Part shown: piece by piece, positions 11,683 to 25,427 of the stretch
Layout: each line of letters opens with the position of its first letter
Numbering within the stretch: position 1 is the first letter of the stretch
Source: Tricharina praecox
Taxonomy: Eukaryota
Direction: 5' to 3'
Assembly: GCF_024521635.1 (NCBI RefSeq)
Contig: NW_026250414.1
Location: 372,001 to 436,000, forward strand
DNA length: 64,000 nucleotides
Position numbers and translations under genes: made by a program
Notes under the pieces: model-generated
The model's input: only the letters and a program-made list of their open reading frames with translations
Told to the model about the DNA's origin: nothing
The model's database searches: none

Positions 11683-12023
11683 TACATCGGCAGATCTTAA
11701 CGGAACATCTTGGTTCCGGGAATAGCTGCTGAGAACATCATAGTTACTCTAGTTACAACCGCCGCGTGAGCCTAGCAGGGGCCATACGTGAGTTGGTGTG
11801 ATTCGTGTCTGATCTGACGCCCGAGGCAACAATGGGACTCTCTAGTTTCAATAGCCCCTACATACTGCAGACCTACTCTAGTCGCCTGCCAACTAGTAAT
11901 GTAATCAGAACTGATACCGAACTCAAAAGTTTACTTGCTGTGTACCTATGTACAAACTCAATGTCCGCTTAAACGATTCAAAGATTCAACCCGCAACCTG
12001 ATGTTACATATACGCCTCTCTCT

Positions 12024-13925
12024 CTAATACCCAACAGCCTGACCATCGCCCCTAGGATCGCTCCCAGCACTCCACACCCTTTGTCCCTCCTCCTCATCCC
12101 ACCCAGCAACGATTACCTGCCCGCGCCCAAACATTCCGCGCCCATACTCCTTCACCACCTCGACGACATGTCCCTTCTCCCTCAGACCCCTGACCGTCTC
12201 CTCGCTAATGCCCTCCTCGACATGGACCACGGGCGCGCCGGGATCATAATTCGAGCCGATGCTAATCCTTGGAGCGTCGAGGGCAGCCTGGGGACTCATA
12301 TTGCAGCGCAGTCCGTTCAGGAGGACCTGCACGTGGCCCTGCGGCTGCATGAACCCTCCCATGACGCCGAAGACAGCCTGCAGTTCGCTTCCGGTGGGAT
12401 CGGTGAGCATACCGGGGATGATGGTGTGGTAGGGGCGCTTCCCGCCCTCGAGCACGTTCGGGTGGTCCGTGAGGAGTGAGAACCCCGCGCCCCGGTTTTG
12501 GAGCACGAAGCCGCAGTCCGCAGGAATGATGCCGGAGCCGAAGCCCCCGAATGTGCTGTTGATGAAGCTGCAGCCGTTGCCGTGGGCGTCGGTTACCGAG
12601 AAGTACACTGTGTCCGTGCTTTGGAAGGCCGGTGTGCCGTGCGAGATGGATGAGTTAGTGGAGCTAGGGGAAAAGAGCGCGGCGCGCGATGCGAGGTAGG
12701 AGGAAGACAGGAGGCCGGACACGGGTACGGGCGAGACGGATGGGTCCGCGATCCACCAATGGCCGTCCGAGAAGGCGATACGGAGGGCTTCGATTACAGC
12801 GTGGAGGTATCTAGATCGATAGTGTTAGCTCGTGCATGGTGAGGAGGGGACAATGGGTGCAAGTACTCAGCCTCGTTGTGGCCATAGCCCTTGTCCCCCA
12901 AACCAAGTGGCTTGATATCCCCACGCTTCTCCATCTCCTCAATAATCCCCAGTGCCATGAGGGCGACAAGTCCCTGGCCGTTGGGCGCACATTCCCAGAC
13001 CTTAGTCCCCGAGAACTCAATTCCAATCGGCACGGTCTTCTCACTTCCCAGCTTCCCATGTCTCTCCAGATCATCCATCTCCATAACACCGCCCCTCTTC
13101 TTCACCGCCTCAACAAGTGCCCTCGCCACCTCACCCTCGTAAAACGCACTTTTCCCCTCCTTGGCCAGCTTCCTAAACACCCTGGCCAATCCGGGCATCT
13201 TCATAATCTCCCCGACCCTCGGCGGCCTCTTTCCGCCCTTCAGCAGCTCCCCGGCATTGTCCGGACTCGCATCGCGGATGGTATGTTCGCACTCCGCCCA
13301 GAACCTTGCGCTCAGCTCACTGACAGGAAACCCCTCCTCAGCCAGCCTGACCGCCTCACCAAACACCTGTTCCATGTGCACCTTCCCGCTCCCAAACTTC
13401 TCTACCACATCGACCCACCCGGCCGCCGCACCGGGCACCGTGACAGCGTGCACATGTCCCATCGGGATCTGCGCCACCTCGTCGCCAAGGTCGTTGACGT
13501 AGCGCTTTCTGCCGCTAAGTCCTAAATCCTTGCGTGCACGGGCGAGGGACAGCGCCGCGGGGGAGCGTCCGGACGCGTTGATACCCCGGATCGTGCGGGT
13601 GGACGCGTTGTAGAACAGGCAGAACACGTCGCCGCCTATGCCGGTGCTCGTGGGCTCGGTAACGTTCAGGGCGGCGGCGACGGCTACGGCCGCATCCTAC
13701 TATTCTCAGTCGAGCGGACGGGAGGGGAGGGGAGCGGAGCGGGGGACTAACAGCGGCGTTGCCGCCATCGCGCAGGATCTTGATCCCCGCCTGTGCGGCC
13801 AGCGGCTGCGTACACGATACGATGCCGTTCGTGCTGTGGACTACTGAGCGCCGGCTGGGGAACGGGACGAATGGTGGCTGCTCCGCTGCGAGCGCGTGCA
13901 GGTTTTTGCGAGCTTGTCCGAACAT
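12024..13925 (-). CDS. Gamma-glutamyltranspeptidase family protein (Ntn hydrolase), 3 exons
   Basis: [80 protein letters not shown], catalytic Thr in [40 protein letters not shown]. First in-frame ATG is at 13925; introns near 13700-13752 and 12811-12866. Confidence 0.92.
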
Positions 13926-14989
13926 TTCCGCTGTGTTGACAGAGGGAGCCAAGGTTGGAATCTGGATTGTGGACACATGCAGGTTTTAAGTACCTGCCTG
14001 CAGGCCCGGCCCGGCCGTTGTCCCTTCAGCTGCGCATAGCCGCGGAGGTGGTGGTGGCGGGCGGTACACAACAGTGGTGATTGGTGAGGTCCATATAAAG
14101 TGTGGATCTACCACTACATGGCTCGGGAACGCGGAAGCTTTGCGGGGTAAACAGGGATCGGACGGGTTCTTCCGCGAGTCGCGAACTACGGACTCTCGTC
14201 TCCTAACGACGGGCACTATTTCGTGGGTCTAGGTCATGGTCTCTCGGGAGCTCTGCAAAGTGCTGTGTGCAACGGTCTACGATGTCGGAGAGAGCTTCTA
14301 TGTAACTACATTCCATCTCCCCGTTCGAAAAATAAACCTGACAGCCCTCCTAGAAACATCCGTACATTGTCCTCAATTCCTAAAGCTCCCAGACTTTCAA
14401 CAGTGACGACCTCCTTTTTGACCATACAACCCAGTCTGTTCCCCTCCCCAAGCTTCTCTTCTGCCTCACGAGATTCACCAGCGCTATTCGATCAGTTTAG
14501 GATGAGGTAGAACAACAGTGATGACTGCGCTCAAGACTTGCCTCTTTCAAAACTCTGAACCGACAGGTATGCAAGTAGTTTGCTATCAGTTTACCAGTTT
14601 GCCACCACTGCCGATTACCTAGGTACTCGCAGTGGACTCCATACGGAAATTGGGTGAGGGCGTTTGTGGCGTTTGTGGCGAGTTGAAGAGTGAGATGTGA
14701 GGAAGCGGTGATTTGTAAAGTAGCCGAGGTTGACAGGAATGAAGCCGGTGGATACCGGTAGATATCTCAAGGGTAGGTGCCTAGAGTAGATCTACTTGAC
14801 ATGCCGCTGCTCTGCCGCCTCGGTAATTAAGGGTTTCGTACATACCTGCATAGTGGGGATGGAGCTTGGTCGTGTGAGTATAATACAGCGCCGGGACGCC
14901 TTAAGATCGCAAGTCTTGGGCATTTCCCACGTGGTCCGCGTTGCGCGACACAATGGCCCGGTGAAGCCTCAAGACTACTATTCACGCAC

Positions 14990-16901
14990 GGACCTGTTCG
15001 GCTCGCGCCGTAATTCCAAGCTGCCACACAAATTTGAGTTGACGTTAGTTGGCTTGGAAATACGCTGAGCGTTCGGCACAACCACTTGATCGATGGAATT
15101 GAGCCACATCGTATTTTGTTTACGTATTTTTCTGAGCCACCACCAAAAAAAATAGGCTACATAATGCCAGCATTCATCACCAGCTCCCCCTGAACCCGTG
15201 CAACACAACAACATCCACAATGCCCCGCGGTGACAGCTTCCTCACCCCAGAAGTATTGCTTGCCATTGCCGTTCTTGTTGGCGCATGCGAAGCTTCTCGT
15301 TACGAAAAACCTTCACCAGAAACCTCCCCACTGTTTGGCTCCGAGTATGTGGACGAGCTTCTAAGCTGCGAAGAAGACGATGACCCACAAGTTCTCGACG
15401 CCTTCCGGATGCCGCTATCCACATTCCTCGCACTGCGCGACTGGTGTGTCGAGCACGGGCACCTGCAAGCGACGCGGTACATGTCGGTGGACGAGCAGCT
15501 CGCGATCTTCCTCTGCGTCGTCGGCGAGAACACGACCAACCGCGCGGCACAGGAACGGTTCAAGCGCAGCGGTAACACCATCAGCCGCTGCTTCAACATC
15601 GTTCTCGACGCGATGGTAGCGCTGTGCACCGCAATTGTCAAGCAGCCAGCTATCCGCCAGTCGCCTACTACCCCGCGTGTCCGGGATGATCCGGAAATGT
15701 TTCCGTACTTCAAAGATTGCCTCGGTGCCGCATCCGCAGCAACAGCAGTAGAAGCCGCAGTAGCAGACGGTACCCCGCATGCCCATGCCGATCCCCCTGT
15801 GGTGCCGGCGTCGGACGGAAAACCCTAAGCACGACCTCGAAACACCGGCAACGGCGACATCAGCCAGAGCGCCGTTGGACTGTGCACCTTTGACGAACTG
15901 TTCTGGCATGTTCTGCCCAGTGGTTGGGCAGGATTGGTACACGATGGTGGCCGCGGTCGCGTGCTTCAGGCCGCCGCTTTGCGTGATGCCCGCGTGATTC
16001 CACCGCCTGGCAACTACTATCTGGTGGATGCGGGCTATGGCTTAAGACCAGGCTTTCTCCCGCCCTACCGCGGCGCCCGGTATCGGAAGCTGGAGGATCA
16101 ACGGCTGGAGAAGCAACAACAAAAACCGCGCAACAAGGAGGAGCTGTTCAACCTCCGCTACGCGCAATTACGGAGCGGTGTCGAGCCCATCTTCCAAACC
16201 TTGAAACGGCGGTTCCGCATCCTTCGAGCTCCGCAGGAGTATACGTACGCTACGCAAGTCAAGCTGGTCTTTGCGCTTACTGCCCTGCACAATTTCATAC
16301 GAATAAACAACGACAAGAGTGAACTGGATCGATGGCGGAGAAGTACTAGCGTGGAAATGGAAGTGGAAATACATGATGGAGAAAGTTCGCAGGAAAATGC
16401 AGAAACGGATACTGCTAGTGTAGAGGAGGAAACTGAAGCGGTAGAAGGGAACGGCGGAAGACAAATGGCTGAATTGAGGGATCAGATAGCGGAGGAAATG
16501 TGGCGAGATTATACAGGTGAGGGAAGACTTAAGAGGAAAAGGAACCTGACGGGCAAGGGGCGGGAAGGACACAAGAAAGTATGTAGTTGAGTAGAGGTGG
16601 TGGTGTGGTTCTGTCGTATCGCTGTGTCGTCGTGTCGCCGTGTCTCTCTATTCATGTAATTTGTTCTGATGGCGCTGTGCGTGCCCTCTTACCAACTTTT
16701 TCGCCTCGGCTGAAAGTGTAGTATATACTGTAATAGTAATATCGTGGGGCGTAGAGAGGCTGTCGAGTGTAAAATACGGAGAAAGTGGTGTTGCCGAACA
16801 GATATTTGAGATGTGTGGGCGCCAAAATATACGGAGTAGTGTAGATACCGTATTTCCAAACTGACGTCGCTTTAGAGATACGGTGCGAGTCGAACAGGGC
16901 C
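14990..16901 (+). mobile_element. PIF/Harbinger DNA transposon, about 1.9 kb, single ORF
   Basis: TIRs GGACCTGTTCGGCTCGCGCCGTA (14990) vs reverse complement GGCCCTGTTCGACTCGCACCGTA (16901), 20/23 identical. Shared subterminal blocks TTGGAAATACG and GTTCGGCA..CCACTT. Flanks are CAC / TAC. Encloses a HARBI1-type transposase. Confidence 0.85.
15220..16590 (+). pseudogene. Harbinger (DDE_Tnp_4 / HARBI1-like) transposase with one in-frame TAA at 15826-15828
   Basis: FRMP..TF..L, SVDEQLAIFL, QERFKRSGNTISRCF, PYFKDCLGA..DGT, GW.G.VHD, YYLVDAGY, ELFNLRYAQLRSGVE.IF..LKRRFRIL, ALHNFIR. ORFs 15220 and 15934 are in the same frame, separated only by one stop. Confidence 0.9.
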
Positions 16902-17155: not shown

Positions 17156-19762
17156 TCATGGCATCAGCTCGAAGGTATCGATTCGCTCCAGGCTGCCGTC
17201 CAGAATCTCGCAGGTGGAATAATCCTCTTTGAAGATGACGTGATAGAGGTACTTTGGGAGCATGGTGAAGCCTAGTTATCGGTTCGTATCAGTAACTACG
17301 AATTGCAAGTGTACGGTGGGAGAGGTGGTTAAAGCCTCGACGCATCGCGAACGAGAGAGGATGGTCATGGAAATTCTGCTTCCAGTTCTCCACATTACCG
17401 TGGAAGCGTCCATCTAGTCGTTGAGACAAGAGGACGCAACCTGTATTACGAATCTTTGCGACCACCATTGGGGGGAATGTGCGGGATAGCAACGCAACGT
17501 ACCGTCGATAACCTTTGGCACTACCATCCCAAACTCCAACCAAATCTGCTCCTGAACTTCCCCGTCACGTGCAGGCGTTTTATCCCTGATGGCCCACCGC
17601 TTCTCCGGGAACCACAGTTCGAATCCGCCCCTCTGCTTCTCGCATTCCACGACAGGCATGAGATCCCAACACACGCGGTATAATTCGTCGTAGTAAAGCC
17701 GAGAGCTCGGGCGGATGGTGAGGCCTGGTCCTAGGAGGCCGCCGAGATGGTGGTTTAGGGAGCTGCGGGAGAAAAGACGGAGGGCGGTAGAGATGAAGTC
17801 GATCAGCGTAAGGTTGGATATCGAGTTGGCAGGCGGGAATATGTGGCTCAGAAGGTGTTCGTAGACGCTGTTCTGGTCAGTGGGACGGAAGATAGACGAG
17901 GGGGGAGAACCTACCGGCGATGCAAAAGCGACGGAGTGGTATAGGTCCGGGTATTTGCGACTGGATCAATCTCAGAAATTAACAGGCCCTTTCGGCAGCA
18001 GGCTTCGAGGGTGGCCCTGTTTGCGGTGTTTTCGGTGACGCTCTGGCGGGCCACAACTTGCTGCATCGTCCTTGCAATCTGCGATTGCTCAAAGGAAGCG
18101 AGAAGAGATTGTGGAAAGAGTGTTTGCATGGCAGACGTCTTGAGGAAATAACTGAAATCAACGGAATTGCGAGCGAAAACGGTGGATAGCACTGCGGGTA
18201 TGAAGCATAGGTCTCCTTCTCCGGGTGATCTTGAAGCCTACCAGATGTTAGCATTGAACGGGACCATGGGCGTAAGATACCATACCTGGACCTCCTTCAT
18301 CGCACCGATGATGCTCCGAACGCAACCCGGATGCCCACCGGTAAACGAGTACAAGAACTCCCTTGCCTCCTCGGAAAAGACCAACGCCCCGGTCTTTCGA
18401 GCTTTGAAACTAGGGCCACAGACCGCGTTCATTACATCGTGATACTCCTCCCGTGTAAAATACAACGACACATTGGAATTATTGGTAGGAAGTGGCCGGC
18501 ACGAGACGGTCTGTTTCCGTGAGAGATACATATCATCATCGGAATACGACGAGAATAGGGCGATATAAAAGTTTCTCATCCCTTCCGTCGTCTCGCGCTT
18601 GATAAGATCGTTCCAAAGGTTGCGAAACGGGCTCAGGTATTGCGAATCGTCGAGAATTAACAGCTTCGGGCCCTGGGATTTGAGGAATTGTTCCGGTACG
18701 CCGATGCTGTGGAGAACAGAGATCCAGTGGGAGTGGGAAGGTAAATGGGGAAGCGGCTGACAGACGATGCTGCATACCTCGATGTCGGAGTTCGAGCTTG
18801 CGGATACATGCGTTGAGAGCAAGCCCGCAAGAGTGGACTTTCCGCTGGATGGGGGGCCATAGATCTGGATGACTCGGAGGAGCTGTTGCTGTTCCCATAG
18901 GGCATTGACGATATGGTGCCTGGGTGAGGATTGAATGTTCAAGAAAACAGGCACATCGGAAGGCCTCTGGCTCTTGCTCGGAGTGTGTTCTATTTTTTCC
19001 GCCTTGGTTAGCAAGCCTTCGGCCCCTCCTCTCACCGCCACCATTGTCAGGACCAACCGACCAGTCGTCATGCCAACGGACGCAACACTGCCAGCCGCTG
19101 CAGACCCACTATCCTCCGGACAATTCCCATGGCTCCCAATCAGATGGGCACAGTTATTGCAGCGAATATCAACCCAACCGTTGACACTCTCGGGGATATT
19201 GAACTCTCCGGCCCGGCACGGACACCCTATCCCGACCTTCCCCGAGCGGACCATATACCTGCATTCTCCCGACCTCGTCCGTATAGAGACCGTCGACGAT
19301 TCGTGCATCTCGTCGGCAGCGTCGAGTGGAGGCGATGACGATATCTCGTTGCTCACGCTTGTACCGGCGTTGTTCGATTTGATGGACCCGAGACGGACGA
19401 CCTGACGTCCCTCGGTGGGGGCTATCCCTTGTTCCCGCAGGTGTCTCTGGTAGGGCTGGCAGAGGCGGAGGTGATTGACTGAAAGTTGTTAGGATATATC
19501 CCCCCATCCCCCTCTTCATCCCTCTCCCGTCCAGTCCGGTCGTGTGTTTGTGCCCGTGATACATACCCTGCCGTCCCGCATGCTGCGCCAGTTCCTTCTG
19601 ACACCAATTGCACCGAACACTCCAGCGCTGTCAATTGCGGTCAGCCCTTCCCTTCCGCACCCCGGACTTGTCCGTCTTGCAACCAATGGGGCCTACCTTC
19701 CGATCCGGAGCTTTGTAGGTGGTGAAAGCCTCCTCGATCTCGGAGTTCCGCTGGCGAGCCAT
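17156..19762 (-). CDS. Multi-exon Crinkler-like STAND P-loop NTPase with N-terminal BED finger and CxC zinc module and C-terminal degenerate REase-like domain (about 716 aa if fully spliced; 3' part may be frameshifted)
   Basis: Proposed exons 19762-19697, 19627-19567, 19478-19062, 18989-18286, 18237-17915, 17867-17503, 17413-17315, 17271-17156, all GT-AG and frame-consistent; the last two introns are uncertain. Motifs: VRCNWCQKELA..RQVNHLRLC, Walker A GPPSSGKST, Walker B LLILDDSQ, TGGHPG, PSLLHRR, YYDELYRVCW, LYHVIFKEDYSTCEILD. Confidence 0.75.
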
Positions 19763-21572
19763 CGTGCTCGAGGCCGTCTGGGGGGAGAATAGAAAAGAAT
19801 CTTGATAGTGAAGTAGGTAAGAAGTTACATGTTCACACGATGTTTTCCGATACTTATGTGTCGAAACCCCGCCCGCCCCACGGGCCTCAATTTTTTTTTT
19901 TGCCGCTGGTCTTCTGACAAAGACTTACGTAGTGTATGGAAAGTAATGCTGTAATTCTGTTGCGCACAGGTCATCGTAGAGAAAGTTTTGTGTGCGGGTT
20001 TCGAGCACACGATGGGTTTGCGAGCTCGGGCCACGGGTCGGTCACTATATCCAGCGACACACGAGTGACTGCTTAAATGCAGAAAGGTGGGAACTGATAA
20101 GGCTACATGCGGCGCCCTGTTGGTGGTACAAGCAGGTACTTTGGGGTTCTTGTCTCGCACCAGCCGTCCAATGTCCAGCCGTAGTCCTGTCTTTGCAGTC
20201 CGTGAATTTTTGCCTTTGGGCACTCCGAGTAGGTAGTGACGAGCGAAGTGAGGGTCTGGATTTTGACTGCGATCGCGTGACGGATTGCCGGTATTCATAC
20301 CTCCGAATGAATCGGCATGACGTACACTGTACGCAGCTGAGTTGACCAGATAGCATAGATACGGATTTTAGGTATTCCATGGACGGGTGCGCAGACAGTG
20401 TCTTTGAGAGATCCAAAAACGTGTGAGGGATGGAAACGGATCGATTGAACTAGAATTCTCGGTCGACGATATGCAATATGAGTGTGATGAGGACTAGAGA
20501 CCGACCAACGGACAGGCAGAACAGAAATAGTGTCAACAGAAATAATTCAACGTTCAACAACCGCATCGGGCATGCATCGGGTCCCAGCTCCACAAAACTT
20601 TGTCCCACCAGGTCTCCACAAGGTGTTCTCTCTCTCCGGTGCTCACCGATGACGCCAAGCTGCCTCTTCCTTCGCGCCCCTCAACCTTATTGCAGCATGG
20701 AGAAAAAGAGACATGCTCGCAAACACTCTGATCTATACATGCAACGCCGCTCCATCAAATCTGTACACAAATAGCGCCGCCACCACGACCACCACCAGCC
20801 GTCACTTCAGTGACTGCTGATCTGGAAGTACTGAAAGGCCCACAGGAACCTCCAGTCCGCCTCCCGCGTCAACCTCTGCTCCCTCGGGCCATGTCAAGAA
20901 GCCGCCGTCCAATGTCATCTCGCCCTTTCCGAGCTGGCAAGCGCAACACGGTCTCAACTATCACCGTCTGCGAAACAACGCAGATCCGAGGCACCGCTCG
21001 CCAGAAGTAGCTGGACTAGTTTCGGATTCGTATAAACCCGCTACCATTCGCCTATAGAAGGGGGGTATTCGTTGCACTGTTCCTCAGGATATTGGGAGGT
21101 CATACCTACCCGTCCAGCGTGGGCGAGAAGCCATCCGTTCATCTGTCGAGTCCCGCAAATCCGGAATCATGGACTTTGCAGTTGAAATTGACTACCTACC
21201 TACATACATCTTACATAGGTATCGTCAAATGGTCTTGATCGACTGAATTCCTCGTCTCGGTGGCTAGGTGAAGCGGAACCGAACCGAATATATACCGTAT
21301 TATCTCGGATATAAATCTCGTTTTTGAAATGGGTTTGGCGCGGTGTGAGCGCGCCACTGCGCTTAACTAGGGTTAGTGAGGAAGCGGCAATAAAACGTCA
21401 ACTAATTGAGAGGTTGGAGCTTGGAGCTTGGAAGGGCTGAAGTCCGTGAGAATGGCAGTGAGAGGCTGCTGACCCCTGACTCCAGATCCAGGAGTCCTGA
21501 ACAGTTATTGATACAGAACACCTATACAAAGCACCTCACAAAAACCAACTTCCAGCAATCAGAAAGATAAGC

Positions 21573-22898
21573 ATGGAGAACGGCGAACTCGTCAATTCCA
21601 CTATACCACTGAACGCCTCGGATGCAGTCATATTGCAATTCGAATCTCTTATTCTCACCCCTACGGTTCGAAAAGCTACCGACAAAGCTTTAGACGAAGA
21701 CGATGATGACGATGATGATGACGATGACGAACTGGTCATCCGTCCACCACCCAAATCCAAGCCCGGCCCCAAACGAAAGCCTACCTCAGAGGTTGTGCGT
21801 AAATTTCCGCCTCCACCTACCGATCCCAACCCCGAGAGACGAGCCTTTACGACCGAATTCAAACTGGGAATACTGTCATATGCCAAATATGCCAGGGTGG
21901 ATAATGGAAAAGGTGGTCTACGAGCTCCGAGGGCTACCGAGGTGTGTGAACGTTACAACATAAAGCATACACGGTATTTGCGCAGATGGCGCTGCGAGGA
22001 GGAAAAGTTACTCGCCATGAAACCGGAACAGAAAAGAAACCGATTGTCTCGCAAACGTGCGCCTAAGCTCTCGGCTGGCTCGGCGGACGCCCTCTCGCCA
22101 GCCGTGTCCTCGCCAGCCGTGCCCTCGGCAGACGTGCCCTCGGCAGACGTGTCCTCGCCAGCCGTGCCCTCGGCAGACGCGCCCTCGGCAGACGTGCCCT
22201 CGGCAGACGTGCCCTCGGCAGACGTGCCCTCGGCAGACGTGCCCTCGGCAGACGTGCCCTCGGCAGACGTGCCCTCGGCAGACGTGCCCTCGGCAGACGC
22301 GCTCCCAGCAAGCTCGGCGAGCGGGTTCTCGGCAGGCTCTGCGGGCAGTCTCTCGGCCGGCTCGGCGGGCGGGTTCTCGGTAGGCATGTTCTCGGCAGGC
22401 GTGTTCTCGGCAGGCGTGTTCTCGGCCGACCCGCTCTCGGCGGACCCGCTCTCGGCGGACCCACTCTCGGCAGGTGCGCTCTCGGCAGGCTCGGCGAGCG
22501 CGTTCTCGGCTGGCTCTACGGGTGGTCTCTCGGCTGGCTCGGCCAACGCGTTCTCGGCAGACTCGAAGGGCAGTCTCTCGGTAGGCTCGCCGGGCGGGTT
22601 CTCGCTAGGCGTGTTCTCGGCTGGTGTGTTCTCGGCGGACGCGCCCTCGGCAGGCTCGGCAAGTGCATTCTCGGCTGGCTTTAAGGGCACTCCCTCGGCT
22701 AGCTCGGCGGACGTGCTCTCAGCGGACGCGCTGCCGGCGAGCTCTAAGGGCAGTCTATCGGCAGGCTCGGTGGGCGCACCCTCAGCTGTCTCTACTAGAA
22801 AAGTCAAGGCACTCTCGGCGCGCGCAAGCAAGAAAACCCCTCCTGAACCAACAACCTCAACTAGAAGAAGTAAGAGACTGGAAGGAGTGCAGAAGTAG
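21573..22898 (+). CDS. Pogo/Brinker-type HTH domain fused to a Ser/Ala/Gly/Pro minisatellite-encoded tail (truncated transposase derivative)
   Basis: RRAFTTEFKLGILSYAK...EVCERYNI....LRRWR resembles the BrkDBD/pogo N-terminal HTH. No DDE domain follows. The 441-codon ORF is uninterrupted. Confidence 0.6.
   Translation: MENGELVNSTIPLNASDAVILQFESLILTPTVRKATDKALDEDDDDDDDDDDELVIRPPPKSKPGPKRKPTSEVVRKFPPPPTDPNPERRAFTTEFKLGILSYAKYARVDNGKGGLRAPRATEVCERYNIKHTRYLRRWRCEEEKLLAMKPEQKRNRLSRKRAPKLSAGSADALSPAVSSPAVPSADVPSADVSSPAVPSADAPSADVPSADVPSADVPSADVPSADVPSADVPSADVPSADALPASSASGFSAGSAGSLSAGSAGGFSVGMFSAGVFSAGVFSADPLSADPLSADPLSAGALSAGSASAFSAGSTGGLSAGSANAFSADSKGSLSVGSPGGFSLGVFSAGVFSADAPSAGSASAFSAGFKGTPSASSADVLSADALPASSKGSLSAGSVGAPSAVSTRKVKALSARASKKTPPEPTTSTRRSKRLEGVQK
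22069..22822. repeat. 15-bp minisatellite (GCCCTCGGCAGACGT)n grading into degenerate 12/15-bp CTCGGC-core repeats
   Basis: Near-perfect units at about 22121-22300 encode (VPSAD)n; the CTCGG core recurs to about 22820. Confidence 0.95.
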
Positions 22899-24366
22899 TA
22901 TGTGGTTGCAGAGTTGTTTCCTAAAGTAGTATTAGCAATAATGAAGATGATGAAGATGATGGTGTGGAATTCTGTTGGAGAGACGAGGTTTGAGGCGGGA
23001 GCATTCTGGAATTTCAAGTAGTATTACAAAAGAGTCGTCACTGTGAACCTATGTAATCAATATGCCTCCAGAATTATGGCCGACGGATATATTGGCCGTT
23101 CCCTGCACACAGGTACCATGCCGTACCGTACTGTGGGTACACAAGTACCTTGTTGTACTCTATGTGAACAATACCGCGTAAAGTTACGCATGGTCAAGTG
23201 CATGCTTATCTTATATACACACAATCGCTGAACCGTTGAATGACAGAAAACCATCGTCTTATACCGGAATGTCTCCACGACGTACCTATATAAAAGGCAT
23301 AGGTATTCCCTCAGCCAACTAGATGCTAGACAGATTGTCCAAATGACAGTTAGCAAGCGGTTACGCAGCCGGTCCTCATAAAGCTCCCGAGAGCCTCACC
23401 TCGGTCGGTCGGTCGGACGGGCCTTCGAATATGGGGCCGAGATCGGTACATACTCTACTCTAGTCTACCGGTATTTGATTTCGCCATTTAAGCGGCCATT
23501 TAAGCGTATATCTATAGGTCTAGTCCCGAATCCATGAAGCTTGAACCTGTAGTTGGGTACCGCACTGCGGTTAAGCTTGTGTAATAGCGCGGGGAGAATG
23601 GTGGGGGCCGGGGAAGCGGGGTCGGATTCTGGAACCCAAACACCGGTACAAGAACGAAAGAGGAAGAGAAAAAACAACCTTGCCCGTCCCTTCCCATACC
23701 AGTAGCATAACCAGACTCCAGAGAGCGAGAATTATCCGTGGATTTAGCCTATCTACAAACATGTCCCGTTTATGTGTGCACACCCCCCGGTAAACGGCTT
23801 CCAGACAGACTCCAGTGTCCAATCGGTCGGACTGGAGATACGTTCCAGGCAGGTGCGTATCTCTGGCGTGGGAAACGTAGTGGGATTGGATAGCTCCCAG
23901 AGTAGTAGATAGATGTGTGTATGTATCTACCTACTCTAGACCAGCGGCGGCGAGTGTCTACCGAAACTACAGCAGCAACTACAGCCCTTCCGCCTTTCCG
24001 CCCGGAAGTCCTCATCCCTTCCTGCCTCCCATCCCATCCCATCTCGGCGCGAAGGACGGATCTCGAGGTCATACAGCTCCTGTCAGACCCCCAGAGAAGA
24101 GAAGGTGGATATGTGGTTAGCTAGCTAGCCATGCAAACACACGGACGGAGGACGGAGAGGCGGGTGTGGTGGTGGTGGCGACTCCCTGATAGGTACCGTG
24201 CATAGCAGGGCCAATCGACAGAATGGCAAGAAAAAAAATCTACATACATCGCACTGTCAACGCGGTACTCTGCCAACCGTGCCCGCCGCGGTGGTGAATA
24301 AATATCCCCCCGCGCACTCCCCTCGATATCCCGCGCACTCCCCACAGGTACCTATAGACTATAGAG

Positions 24367-25427
24367 ATGTTCCGCCCCCCGAGCCTACGATCCGCGCTGC
24401 GCACAGCAGGCGCAATCCTGCCCCGCAGTCCCGCTCTCCGAGTCGCAGCGCGCACACTCTCCAGCAGCAGCTCCGCCGCCGCCGCCGCCGGACCACGCAC
24501 GCTGAGCAGCTTCTCGCTCGAGGGGAAGACCGCGATCGTTACTGGCGGAGCTCGTGGGTGAGTCGACTCCAATCCAGAGCACGGGGGGAGGGGGGGAAAG
24601 AGGAGGGGCTAACCGCGCGGATAATGAAGACTCGGATATGTCATGACGCAGGCGCTCGTCGAGTCCGGTGCTGATGTGGCCATCGTCGACTTGAACGGTT
24701 CGTCGCTTCTCCCCGCACGGCGAGCCAGCCACTGACGAGTCCCCCCGCAGGCGACCAAGCACACAAAGCAGCCGAGGACCTCCTCGCGTCCTACCGCCAG
24801 GCGCACCCAGACTCGCGGACGCCACGGATCACCGCGCACACGATGGACGTGTCGTCGGCATTCATGGTCGACGAGATCTTCCCTGACATCCTGGCTGCAC
24901 ACGACAACCACATCGACACTCTCGTGACTTCCGCGGGGTTCTGCGAGAACTTCCCCGCGCACGAGTATCCGGCCGAGCGCATGCAGGCGCTGTGGGGCGT
25001 CAACGTCAACGGCACGTACAACTGCGCGGCGACGCTCGCGAGACATCTCATCAAGCAGAAGAAACGTGGCAGCATGGTCTTTATCGGGAGCATGAGCGGC
25101 GCCATTGTAAACATCCCTCAGGCTCAGGCACCGTATAACGCCTCTAAGGCCGCGGTTAAGCATCTCGCGTCCAGCTTTGCCGTCGAGTGGGCCCAGTACG
25201 GCATCAGGGTCAACTGTATCTCCCCCGGATACATGCTGACGGACCTGACGAAGAGGATCCTGGAGGATAAACCAGACCTGAAGAAGCAGTGGGAGACGTT
25301 GACGCCCATGGGAAAGATGGGGAATCCAGAGGATCTCAAGGGCGCCGTTGTGTACCTGGCGAGTGATGCTGCCGGGTATGTCACCGGTACTGAGTTGAGG
25401 GTTGACGGCGGATACACTGCTGTCTAG
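24367..25427 (+). CDS. arbD: D-arabinitol 2-dehydrogenase-like short-chain dehydrogenase, 3 exons, with a mitochondrial-presequence-like N-terminus
   Basis: TGGARG|LGYVMTQALVESGADVAIVDLN, LVTSAGFCENF, GSMSGAIVNIPQAQAPYNASK (YxxxK), AVEWA, VNCISPGYMLT, VDGGYT. N-terminus is Arg/Ser/Ala-rich without acidic residues. Confidence 0.88.

What the first reader, a model, noticed from the sequence alone, without database searches (positions are those of the whole stretch)
17156..19762. BED finger + zinc module + STAND/Crinkler NTPase + degenerate nuclease: candidate fungal integrated-domain sensor or effector
Seen: two short upstream exons not shown in the ORF track (19762-19697, 19627-19567) have canonical donors and branch sites (GCTGAC, CCTAAC). 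They splice in frame to MARQRNSEIEEAFTTYKAPDRKRWSVRCNWCQKELAQHAGRQVNHLRLCQPY, then a C-x12-CPC-x18-CxxC-x-H-x4-H module, Walker A GPPSSGKST, Walker B LLILDDSQ, GGHPG and a C-terminal YYDELYRVCW..GGFELWFPEKRWAI..LYHVIFKEDY region. Established: CxxC...H-x3-C is the BED finger of hAT transposases; BED fingers are integrated into plant NLRs (Xa1, Yr5/Yr7); Crinkler-type genes couple a variable header to a P-loop NTPase and a restriction-endonuclease fold. Inference: a transposase-derived DNA-binding finger has been captured as the header of a fungal STAND NTPase, convergent with BED-NLRs. I do not recognise this architecture as described.
Basis: partly seen in the sequence, partly recalled or inferred. 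Interest (0 to 1): 0.8.

Follow-up and report, generated by a model that had tools for sequence, protein, structure and literature searches.

The report
Fungal Crinkler-type ATPase with BED-like finger
A conserved gene of a cup fungus encodes an ATPase related to the toxin end of Crinkler effectors, with a nuclease-like tail that lacks its key acidic residues and an extra small BED-like zinc finger at the front: an unusual domain mix, but a variant of a known class.

Summary
The seven-exon minus-strand gene 19762..17156 translates exactly to an NCBI protein, a 683-aa "hypothetical protein" of Tricharina praecox, and that model includes both short 5' exons. A syntenic ortholog on a metagenome contig keeps these exons with the same phases. 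They are the best-conserved DNA of the gene (83% and 89%, against 70-76% for the other exons).

The finger (C28, C31, H45, C49) is split by intron 2. Its best Pfam match is zf-BED, but below threshold (E 0.051, 14 bits against a cut-off of 20.6).

The rest belongs to a fungal family of about 200 cluster representatives. Some basidiomycete members carry the Crinkler header. Most ascomycete members start with a seven-ligand Cys/His module. The NTPase folds like Apaf-1, ORC/Cdc6 and CED-4.

In this clade the C-terminal acidic motif is lost, yet the domain is under purifying selection. An NLR-like "integrated decoy" role is not supported.

RNA contigs confirm two 3' introns but do not cover exons 1-2.

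Verdict: a lineage-specific variant of a known module; moderate interest.

The parts
19697..19762 (-). Exon 1 (66 nt, residues 1-22), ATG at 19762; holds the aromatic positions F13 and Y16 ahead of the finger
   Evidence: In the NCBI model P0002. Ortholog exon at L001 5757-5822, 83% DNA identity.
19628..19696 (-). Intron 1 (69 nt, GTAGGC..CAG, branch-like GCTGAC)
   Evidence: 46% identity to L001. No RNA cover.
19567..19627 (-). Exon 2 (61 nt, residues 23-42 plus 1 nt); holds W24 and the C28-x2-C31 half of the finger
   Evidence: Ortholog exon at L001 5893-5953, 89% DNA identity.
19479..19566 (-). Intron 2 (88 nt, GTATGT..CAG, branch-like CCTAAC), phase 1; splits the finger
   Evidence: One RNA-type contig (19328-19538) runs unspliced into it and another ends at 19479.
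19062..19478 (-). Exon 3: the H45-x3-C49 half of the finger, a low-confidence linker (63-104), and the seven-ligand Cys/His module (residues 115-159 = 19263-19129)
   Evidence: Module pLDDT about 90. The module pattern is found in 29 of 155 retrieved proteins.
18990..19061 (-). Intron 3 (72 nt, GTCGGT..TAG), in frame and without a stop, so invisible in an ORF track
   Evidence: only this splice reproduces P0002. The L001 counterpart is 49 nt, so it must be spliced to keep the frame.
18286..18989 (-). Exon 4: P-loop NTPase core (Walker A from residue 226 = 18858; Walker B D295-D296; G-x-P-like motif about 398-403)
   Evidence: Fold matches.
18238..18285 (-). Intron 4 (48 nt, GTATGG..TAG)
17915..18237 (-). 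Exon 5: helical and winged-helix part after the NTPase
17868..17914 (-). Intron 5 (47 nt, GTAGGT..CAG), splice seen in an RNA-type contig
   Evidence: joint 17867/17915 in run X2
17503..17867 (-). Exon 6: linker and most of the C-terminal nuclease-like domain (helix from residue 578, strands 606-610 and 615-619). E607 and R618 stand where the family has D and E.
17272..17502 (-). Intron 6 (231 nt, GTACGT..TAG), splice seen in contigs of two runs
   Evidence: joint 17270/17502 (cut +1) in X1 and X2
17156..17271 (-). Exon 7: last 38 residues and the TGA stop

Best explanation
This is an intact, conserved, single-locus gene of Tricharina praecox (Pezizales). It encodes a soluble intracellular four-part protein.

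1. A small C2HC finger of the BED/C2H2 class (ligands C28, C31, H45, C49). It is added by two short 5' exons and was seen only in this lineage.
2. A seven-ligand Cys/His zinc module, which is the usual N-terminus of the ascomycete family.
3. A STAND/ORC-like P-loop NTPase with a helical and winged-helix extension.
4. A C-terminal alpha/beta domain. In canonical members it keeps an acidic E..D..E motif, as a PD-(D/E)xK nuclease would.

Parts 3 and 4 are homologous to the C-terminal module of fungal proteins that carry the Crinkler header.

In the window's clade two of the three conserved acidic positions are replaced (D to E607, E to R618). The helix after strand 3 is missing. The second Walker B acidic residue varies among clade members.

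I infer that the protein no longer cuts nucleic acid. It most likely works as a nucleotide-dependent switch or assembly factor, held on DNA or another ligand by its two zinc modules and the winged helix. The dead nuclease domain would be kept for binding or oligomerisation.

Shown: gene structure, conservation, homology and motif loss. Inferred: zinc binding, DNA binding, loss of nuclease activity and the cellular role.
For: Gene and protein. The seven-exon model equals NCBI protein P0002. RNA-type contigs of two runs carry spliced 3' junctions. No hydrophobic leader or membrane segment is present: the maximum Kyte-Doolittle 19-residue mean is 1.25.

Conservation. Locus L001 is collinear with the window on both sides. 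It holds an intact 685-aa ortholog with seven GT..AG exons in the same phases. dN/dS is 0.26 overall, 0.26 in the finger, 0.17 in the Zn module, 0.21 in the NTPase and 0.18 in the C-terminal domain.

Finger. The pattern C-x2-C-x13-H-x3-C is rebuilt across intron 2, and all four ligands plus F13, Y16 and W24 are kept in the ortholog. zf-BED is the top Pfam hit for residues 1-62 (E 0.051). Atlas neighbours of residues 1-62 are zf-BED or C2H2-clan clusters (0.90-0.92 by features; TM 0.62-0.76 by structure).

Lineage-specific. Of the 150 listed relatives, none but the protein itself matches before query residue 44. A word-based search with residues 1-62 found only the protein itself among 2 candidates. 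Of 113 retrieved proteins with a Walker A, only P0002 and one doubtful case have a CxxC..H..C pattern upstream.

Family. 200 representatives match at E<=1e-3. Across 65 members, nSTAND3 hits 37 and the Crinkler header 5. P0049, P0102 and P0108 pass the Crinkler gathering score and come from Serendipita, Tulasnella and Tricholoma.

Fold. Apaf-1, ORC1/Cdc6, CED-4, Sr35, MalT and two archaeal ATPases match at E 6e-7 to 1e-4.

Motif loss and derived position. See the alignment. In a tree of 49 rows the window's six-row clade (SH-aLRT 100, stem length 0.89) nests in a 16-row clade (96) of members with the intact motif.
Against: - The zf-BED score (14 bits) is below the gathering score (20.6) and covers only residues 19-41.
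- The AlphaFold model is below pLDDT 50 over residues 1-32 and 38-48, so most of the finger is unmodelled.
- No PDB sequence matches residues 1-62.
- One RNA-type contig runs unspliced 60 nt into intron 2. A finger-less isoform starting at an internal Met is therefore possible.
- The nuclease fold of the C-terminal domain is not shown. There were 0 matches at E<=1e-3 in PDB or BFVD, and no Pfam nuclease family at E<=10 for three C-terminal fragments.
- E607 is still acidic, so residual metal binding cannot be excluded.
- The tree is rooted at the midpoint only.
- All functional statements are inference. Nothing here measures DNA binding, ATPase activity or nuclease activity.
Confidence: 0.55

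Rival explanations
1. The protein is an NLR-like fungal immune or allorecognition receptor. The BED finger is an integrated decoy or sensor domain, convergent with plant BED-NLRs, and the NTPase oligomerises on detection.
For: The NTPase plus winged helix matches Apaf-1, CED-4, Sr35, NLRC4 and MalT by fold. nSTAND3 is the commonest Pfam hit in the family (37 of 65). The Crinkler header is reported as an N-terminal domain of fungal NLRs (PMC9815663, passages read). The finger is a recent N-terminal addition.
Against: No C-terminal repeat or other sensor domain exists; the C-terminus is a small alpha/beta domain. No NACHT hit was found, and NB-ARC hits in relatives are only sub-threshold (E 0.07-0.23). 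The gene is at a syntenic locus, with one ortholog and dN/dS 0.26 in the finger. That is not the diversifying pattern expected of a decoy. ORC/Cdc6 and clamp-loader AAA+ proteins match about as well as NLRs. The main text of the fungal NLR survey holds no 'BED' or 'zinc' (0 occurrences; supplements not seen).
Confidence: 0.12
2. The protein is still an active Crinkler-type toxin or effector. The NTPase regulates a C-terminal nuclease that uses a variant catalytic set.
For: It is homologous to header-bearing Crinkler proteins. CRN C-termini of the type NTPase + HTH + REase are held to be toxic through the REase (review PMC5289972, passages read). The C-terminal domain is under purifying selection (dN/dS 0.18). 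E607 is still acidic.
Against: It has no Crinkler header and no signal-like N-terminus. The family's strand-3 glutamate is R618 here and alanine in P0005 and P0007. The segment after strand 3 is deleted. The gene is a stable syntenic single locus.
Confidence: 0.08
3. The N-terminal finger is not a BED finger taken from a hAT transposase. It is a generic C2HC/C2H2-clan knuckle of other or de novo origin, or it belongs only to a minor isoform. In that case the main product starts near the Zn module, as in other family members.
For: zf-BED is below threshold and was not reported for the whole protein. The best Atlas feature hit is zf-C2H2_12, not zf-BED. Three Ascomycota clusters without a BED label give the highest structural scores (TM 0.76-0.84). 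One contig is unspliced at intron 2. No other copy of the finger lies in the 64-kb window.
Against: zf-BED is still the best of 24,736 Pfam models for residues 1-62. Nine Atlas feature hits carry the zf-BED set, and several zf-BED clusters match by structure. Exons 1-2 are the most conserved DNA of the gene, with phases and ligands kept, which argues for regular use. The intron-6 region also has an unspliced contig beside the spliced ones, so unspliced contigs occur in these runs anyway.
Confidence: 0.17
4. The gene is part of a transposable element. NTPase-plus-nuclease modules are linked with transposons, and a Harbinger transposase fragment lies next to it.
For: A DDE_Tnp_4 ORF lies 566 bp beyond the 3' end, at 15829-16590 (E 9.5e-12). 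A review reports that NTPase+REase pairs are tied to prokaryotic transposable elements (PMC5289972).
Against: The ortholog sits between the same flanking genes in L001. The Harbinger-bearing segment is absent there: about 0.7 kb lies between the gene and the GGT gene, against about 2.9 kb in the window. Only one copy is in the window. The whole gene is under purifying selection.
Confidence: 0.03

Closest known systems
Crinkler (CRN/CR) effectors with an NTPase + HTH + REase C-terminus (Zhang et al. 2016, as summarised in review PMC5289972; the original paper is not held)
   Same: The NTPase, helical/winged-helix and C-terminal module is homologous in sequence to fungal proteins that pass the Pfam Crinkler header score (P0049, P0102, P0108). 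The domain order is the same as described for the commonest CRN C-terminus.
   Different: There is no ubiquitin-like Crinkler header and no secretion signal. The N-terminus is a Cys/His zinc module preceded by a BED-like finger. The acidic motif of the last domain is degenerate. The host is a saprotrophic cup fungus, and the gene is syntenic and conserved.
STAND NTPases, especially Pfam nSTAND3, and the archaeal ATPases SSO1545 and PAB2304
   Same: A P-loop core is followed by a helical domain with a G-x-P-like motif and a winged helix. Fold matches include Apaf-1, CED-4, plant NLRs, MalT, 2fna and 2qen. nSTAND3 is the commonest Pfam hit in the family.
   Different: P0002 itself scores only 11.4 bits against a cut-off of 27.2 for nSTAND3. 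It has no C-terminal repeat array. ORC/Cdc6 and RFC match by fold about as well.
Plant BED-NLRs (Xa1, Yr5/Yr7; recalled, not read here)
   Same: A small BED-type finger lies N-terminal to a STAND-like NTPase.
   Different: The NTPase family is different (not NB-ARC). There are no LRRs. The finger is only BED-like. No evidence of an immune role was found.
Bacterial AAA_35 and AAA-ATPase_like proteins (the latter usually paired with a PD-(D/E)xK domain; the pairing is recalled)
   Same: ESM Atlas feature scores are 0.88-0.89. Atlas structural alignments of bacterial AAA_35 proteins cover query residues 194-677 (TM by target 0.56-0.60).
   Different: These are leads only: no sequence-level match was tested. 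The bacterial proteins lack the zinc modules.
zf-BED (PF02892) of hAT transposases and ZBED proteins
   Same: The spacing is C-x2-C-x13-H-x3-C with aromatic residues upstream. zf-BED is the best Pfam hit. Atlas neighbours are zf-BED clusters.
   Different: The score is below the Pfam threshold. The spacer is shorter than the Pfam profile, and only the first half aligned. No transposase is attached.

Membership tests
zf-BED (PF02892) | Score at or above the Pfam gathering cut-off (20.6 bits) | tested here: not met
   14.0 bits, E 0.051, residues 19-41 against profile 10-30 of 44, when residues 1-62 are scanned alone. Not reported when the whole protein is scanned at E<=10.
zf-BED (PF02892) | Ligand signature C-x2-C-x(n)-H-x(3-5)-[H/C], with conserved aromatic positions upstream (definition recalled from Aravind 2000) | tested here: met
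   C28, C31, H45 and C49, with F13, Y16 and W24 upstream. All are conserved in the L001 ortholog.
zf-BED (PF02892) | BED/C2H2-like zinc-finger fold | tested here: inconclusive
   The Atlas's own model matches zf-BED clusters at TM 0.62-0.76 over 49-58 residues. My AlphaFold model is below pLDDT 50 over residues 1-32 and 38-48. No PDB sequence hit.
zf-BED (PF02892) | Descent from a hAT transposase | not testable with these tools
   No whole genome is held. Within the window, tblastn with P0002 matched its residues 1-42 only at the gene itself.
Crinkler (CRN/CR) proteins | N-terminal ubiquitin-like Crinkler header (PF20147) | tested here: not met
   No PF20147 hit in P0002 at E<=10. Present in 5 of 65 family members.
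Crinkler (CRN/CR) proteins | C-terminal module homologous to that of header-bearing proteins | tested here: met
   phmmer of P0002 against P0049 gives E 1.4e-12 (query 202-618), against P0108 7.5e-7 (205-677), and against P0102 3.3e-7 (198-621). Their headers score 54.7, 57.0 and 29.6 bits against a cut-off of 24.6.
STAND NTPases | P-loop core with Walker A and Walker B, followed by a helical domain and a winged helix | tested here: met
   Walker A from residue 226 and D295-D296. Foldseek: 159 PDB matches at E<=1e-3, led by Apaf-1, ORC1, CED-4 and Sr35.
STAND NTPases | Membership of a curated STAND family (nSTAND3, NB-ARC, NACHT) by Pfam score | tested here: not met
   P0002 scores 11.4 bits for nSTAND3 against 27.2. 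Only P0049 passes, with 28.6 bits. NB-ARC E-values are 0.07-0.23 in relatives.
STAND NTPases / NLRs | C-terminal repeat or other ligand-sensing superstructure | tested here: not met
   No repeat family in Pfam. The model ends in a domain of about 110 residues, one helix followed by six strands.
PD-(D/E)xK (restriction-endonuclease-like) nucleases | Catalytic acidic residues on strands 2 and 3 | tested here: not met
   Most of the rows displayed have D on strand 2 and E on strand 3. P0002 has E607 and R618. P0005 and P0007 keep D but have A for E.
PD-(D/E)xK (restriction-endonuclease-like) nucleases | alpha-beta-beta-beta-alpha-beta core fold | tested here: inconclusive
   Model of the canonical fragment P0148 (pLDDT 86). 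The secondary-structure order fits. There were 0 matches at E<=1e-3 in PDB or BFVD. A restriction enzyme, 3ndh_B, has probability 0.63 at E 0.11. 13 of the 50 BFVD rows listed bear endonuclease, PD-(D/E)XK, DUF559 or Cas4-like names; the best is E 7.7e-3.

The most novel reading that the evidence does not exclude
Ascomycetes hold a large, undescribed intracellular branch of the Crinkler NTPase-nuclease module. In this branch the secretion header is replaced by a seven-ligand Cys/His zinc domain that no Pfam model covers. In one Pezizales clade the nuclease has been disarmed, and a BED-type finger was captured through two new 5' exons. That would turn a conflict-type toxin module into a nucleotide-gated DNA-binding regulator: a domestication caught in progress. 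If the Atlas lead holds, it would also be one case of BED-like finger exons being grafted onto the 5' ends of unrelated ascomycete genes.
Probability: 0.25. Interest if true: 0.6.

Novelty: new variant of a known kind. Interest (0 to 1): 0.4.

Why it matters
The gene shows that the NTPase-nuclease module known from secreted Crinkler effectors also lives in saprotrophic ascomycetes. There it is a conserved intracellular protein with different N-terminal "heads". One lineage has both lost the nuclease motif and gained a small BED-like finger by adding exons.

That makes it a compact case for studying how toxin or conflict modules are domesticated, and how short DNA-binding fingers are recruited. 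It also flags two unannotated pieces: the family-wide Cys/His module and the C-terminal domain. The public record and the relatives I looked up are all called "hypothetical protein" or a generic AAA+ name.

It does not, on present evidence, reveal a new kind of immune receptor.

Tried and rejected
- RNA search: no RNA holder listed. The two holders are only guessed to be RNA.
- Laying them gave no cover of exons 1-2 (19567-19762), so the two 5' junctions remain untested. Contig X2-9 ends at 19479, one base past the exon-3 boundary. A spliced/unspliced branch would end a contig there, but this is one contig in one run and is not used as evidence.
- Whole-genome search: no genome is held, so copy number and hAT elements could not be examined.
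- Word-based search with residues 1-62: only the protein itself, among 2 candidates.
- PDB sequence searches: only P-loop matches. Nothing for the finger or the C-terminal domain.
- Pfam on three C-terminal fragments at E<=10: no nuclease family.
- Foldseek of the C-terminal model: nothing significant.
- My first 3' gene model, with an extra 42-nt exon, was rejected. The NCBI model and the RNA contigs use one 231-nt intron.
- My first placement of intron 3 was 3 nt off. It was corrected and dN/dS was redone. The per-segment identities carry that 3-nt error, which does not touch exons 1-2.
- Pfam over 150 members exceeded the size limit, so the 65-member alignment was used.
- Zhang et al. 2016 is not held. 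Its content is taken only from passages of review PMC5289972.
- Literature searches found no paper with a BED finger on a Crinkler-type or fungal STAND protein. The one paper holding 'Crinkler', 'BED' and 'zinc finger' concerns transposable elements of Rhizophagus (listing seen only). Supplements are closed and may list such architectures.
- Earlier findings were not open.
Full report
**1. What is in the sequence**

The region 19762..17156 on the minus strand holds one gene. Reading the strand and splicing in a script gives seven exons: 19762-19697, 19627-19567, 19478-19062, 18989-18286, 18237-17915, 17867-17503 and 17271-17156. All are bounded by GT..AG.

This model reproduces a stored public protein letter for letter. 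That protein is P0002, 683 aa, "hypothetical protein BZA05DRAFT_474014 [Tricharina praecox]". The window is therefore from this cup fungus or a near-identical isolate.

Two details were missed:
- a 72-nt in-frame, stop-free intron (19061-18990);
- the 3' end uses a single 231-nt intron (17502-17272).

**2. Are the 5' exons real?**

No RNA run covers them. The run search listed two holders that are only guessed to be RNA. Their contigs carry the spliced joints 17270/17502 (both runs) and 17867/17915 (one run). So they hold processed transcript and the gene is expressed. But nothing lies on 19567-19762, and one contig (19328-19538) runs unspliced into intron 2.

The support comes from comparison instead. 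Two protein fragments, P0011 and P0003, 67-68% identical to P0002, lie on the same metagenome contigs. I fetched that locus as L001 and L002. The two copies differ at 4 of 2616 bases in the gene, so they count as one relative.

- L001 is collinear with the window on both sides of the gene.
- Upstream of the fragment's called start it holds homologs of exon 1 and exon 2, with the same lengths (66 and 61 nt), the same phases and canonical donors.
- DNA identity is 83% and 89% in these two exons. It is 70-76% in the other exons and 46-67% in the introns (the intron-3 boundary was 3 nt off in that script).
- The full ortholog is an intact 685-aa reading frame of seven exons.
- Nei-Gojobori dN/dS is 0.26 overall, 0.26 for residues 1-55, 0.17 for the Zn module, 0.21 for the NTPase, 0.30 for the helical/winged-helix part and 0.18 for the C-terminal domain. 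Only the linker 166-200 looks unconstrained, at 1.42.

The finger is split by intron 2. C28 and C31 lie in exon 2; H45 and C49 lie in exon 3. Only the proposed splice rebuilds it, and all four ligands are kept in the ortholog. I take the exons as real coding exons. Whether every transcript uses them is open.

**3. Is the finger a BED finger?**

- Scanning the whole protein against Pfam at E<=10 gave no zf-BED line.
- Scanning residues 1-62 alone gave zf-BED as the best of two hits. It scored E 0.051 and 14.0 bits against a cut-off of 20.6, and aligned only residues 19-41.
- The ESM Atlas search with residues 1-62 gave feature neighbours at 0.90-0.92 that are zf-C2H2_12, zf-BED or zf-BED_2 clusters. 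Structural neighbours include several zf-BED clusters (TM 0.62-0.76). Three Ascomycota clusters labelled TENA_THI-4, DUF3237 or unnamed scored higher (TM 0.76-0.84). By the tool's own caveats these are leads.
- My AlphaFold model is below pLDDT 50 over residues 1-32 and 38-48, so most of the finger is unmodelled.
- PDB sequences gave nothing.

The spacing C-x2-C-x13-H-x3-C, with aromatic residues upstream, fits the BED signature as I recall it. My verdict is a BED-like finger of the C2H2 clan, with membership not proven. Descent from a hAT transposase could not be tested.

**4. What the rest is**

An exhaustive phmmer search found 200 cluster representatives at E<=1e-3, 62 at E<=1e-10 and 8 at E<=1e-30.

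Named members looked up are all fungal "hypothetical" or generic AAA+ proteins:
- Ascomycota: Sphaerosporella, Geopyxis, Tirmania, Terfezia, Geoglossum, Trichoglossum, Chaenotheca, Helicocarpus, Aspergillus, Paecilomyces.
- Basidiomycota: Serendipita, Tricholoma, Tulasnella.

Pfam over 65 aligned members gave mostly weak hits: nSTAND3 (37 members), AAA_16 (18) and AAA_22 (17). It also found the Crinkler header PF20147 in 5 members, best E 3.9e-15. P0049, P0108 and P0102 pass the Crinkler gathering score. They match P0002 over about residues 200-677 at E 1.4e-12, 7.5e-7 and 3.3e-7.

So the NTPase-to-C-terminus module of this protein is homologous to that of header-bearing Crinkler proteins. A review describes the commonest CRN C-terminus as NTPase + HTH + REase, citing Zhang et al. 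2016 (PMC5289972, passages read). The original paper is not held.

The full-length AlphaFold model (pLDDT 78, pTM 0.70) matches Apaf-1, ORC1/Cdc6, CED-4, Sr35, NLRC4, MalT and the archaeal ATPases 2fna and 2qen (E 6e-7 to 1e-4). This is the STAND/ORC-like branch of AAA+ with a winged helix. STAND and ORC are not separated by these scores.

**5. The N-terminal zinc module**

Residues 115-159 carry C-x12-C-x-C-x18-C-x2-C-x-H-x4-H, which is seven possible ligands. The same pattern is in 29 of the 155 proteins then held, usually within the first 60 residues. One protein, P0112, has two copies. It is modelled with pLDDT about 90 as a small beta structure, and Pfam has no model for it. It looks like the normal "head" of the ascomycete branch, in the place of the Crinkler header.

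By contrast, a CxxC..H..C pattern upstream of it was found only in P0002 (plus one doubtful case) among 113 proteins with a Walker A. No listed relative aligns before query residue 44. The BED-like finger is therefore an addition of the Tricharina lineage, as far as current gene models show. Some models are truncated: P0005 starts inside the Zn module.

**6. The C-terminal domain**

Most canonical members keep a glutamate before strand 2, an aspartate on strand 2 and a glutamate on strand 3, followed by a helix and a fourth strand. That is the order of a PD-(D/E)xK core.

- P0002 has E607 for the aspartate and R618 for the glutamate, and lacks the helix segment.
- Its ortholog has the same state.
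- The sister proteins P0005 and P0007 keep the aspartate but have alanine for the glutamate.

In a tree of 49 rows (46 of the 48 proteins of 480 aa or more, leaving out P0074 and P0112, plus fragments P0003, P0004 and P0006), these proteins form a six-row clade. It has SH-aLRT 100, sits on a long stem (0.89), and nests in a 16-row clade (96) of members with the intact motif. The Crinkler-header proteins lie in the other half (midpoint root only).

The fold itself was not proven. A good model of a canonical fragment (P0148, pLDDT 86) had no match at E<=1e-3 in PDB or BFVD. A restriction enzyme had probability 0.63 at E 0.11. Of the 50 BFVD rows listed, 13 bear endonuclease-type names, best E 7.7e-3. 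"Degenerate nuclease" is thus supported at the motif level and remains an inference at the fold level.

**7. How it most likely works**

The protein has no hydrophobic leader. It is conserved at a syntenic locus next to a gamma-glutamyltranspeptidase gene. Every folded part is under purifying selection, including the disarmed C-terminal domain. The Walker A is intact. The residue after the Walker B aspartate is D here, but V, A or E in clade relatives.

I infer a nucleotide-gated switch or assembly protein that binds nucleic acid through the finger, the Cys/His module and the winged helix, and that no longer cleaves. The steps from "binds zinc" onward are all inferred.

**8. Rivals**

- An NLR-like sensor with an integrated BED decoy is weakly supported. 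The fold resembles NLR NTPases, but there is no sensor repeat, no NACHT or NB-ARC membership and no sign of diversification.
- An active toxin is unlikely given the motif loss and the missing header.
- The finger may be a generic C2HC knuckle or belong to a minor isoform.
- A transposon-borne gene is unlikely. The neighbouring Harbinger DDE_Tnp_4 ORF lies in a segment absent from L001.

**9. Novelty**

The module is known in kind. This combination of heads and a disarmed tail is not annotated in the public record (no Pfam domain). It was not found in four literature searches of the held library. The main text of a survey of fungal NLR N-termini has no "BED" or "zinc". Supplements could not be seen.

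I rate it a new variant of a known kind, interest 0.4.

Noticed in passing
window 15136-16590 (+): An ORF with a Harbinger/PIF-type DDE_Tnp_4 domain (15829-16590, E 9.5e-12), preceded by an ORF with no Pfam hit (15136-15828). It lies in a segment between the gene's 3' end and the GGT gene that is about 2.2 kb longer than in the syntenic locus L001. This is probably a lineage-specific transposon insertion.
   Followed up: partly
window 12017-13928 (-): A gamma-glutamyltranspeptidase gene (two ORFs with G_glu_transpept, E about 1e-59), 81% identical in DNA to L001 9390-11297. It is a syntenic anchor.
   Followed up: partly
window about 19763-24500: The upstream intergenic stretch is about 2.4 kb longer than in L001 (3406-5757). 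It holds overlapping long ORFs on both strands (21501-22898 + and 21953-23023 -) with no Pfam hit. Possibly another insertion or an unannotated gene.
   Followed up: no
window 19129-19263 (-); proteins P0004, P0012, P0021, P0023, P0112 and others: A seven-ligand Cys/His module (C-x(n)-CxC-x(n)-CxxCxH-x(4-5)-H) is the usual N-terminus of the ascomycete family. It is in 29 of 155 retrieved proteins, and P0112 has two copies. No Pfam model covers it, and it is modelled confidently as a small beta structure.
   Followed up: partly
ESM Atlas result for residues 1-62: The best structural neighbours of the finger are the N-termini of three Ascomycota clusters otherwise labelled TENA_THI-4, DUF3237 or unnamed (TM 0.76-0.84). 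This hints that similar small fingers are grafted onto unrelated ascomycete proteins.
   Followed up: no
window 19328-19538 and 17243-17385: Low-depth RNA-type contigs run unspliced into intron 2 and intron 6, beside spliced forms. If intron 2 is retained, the first in-frame Met lies just before the Zn module. That would give a finger-less protein like the rest of the family.
   Followed up: partly
window 18934-19038 (-), residues 166-200: The linker between the Zn module and the NTPase is 34% identical to the ortholog, with dN/dS 1.42. All folded parts are at 0.17-0.30.
   Followed up: partly
window 19881-20000 and beyond: An RNA-type contig of run X1 covers 19881 to beyond 20000, upstream of the ATG, with a gap to the gene. 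It may be a 5' UTR piece or a separate upstream transcript. An A11 run lies at about 19890-19900 on the minus strand.
   Followed up: no
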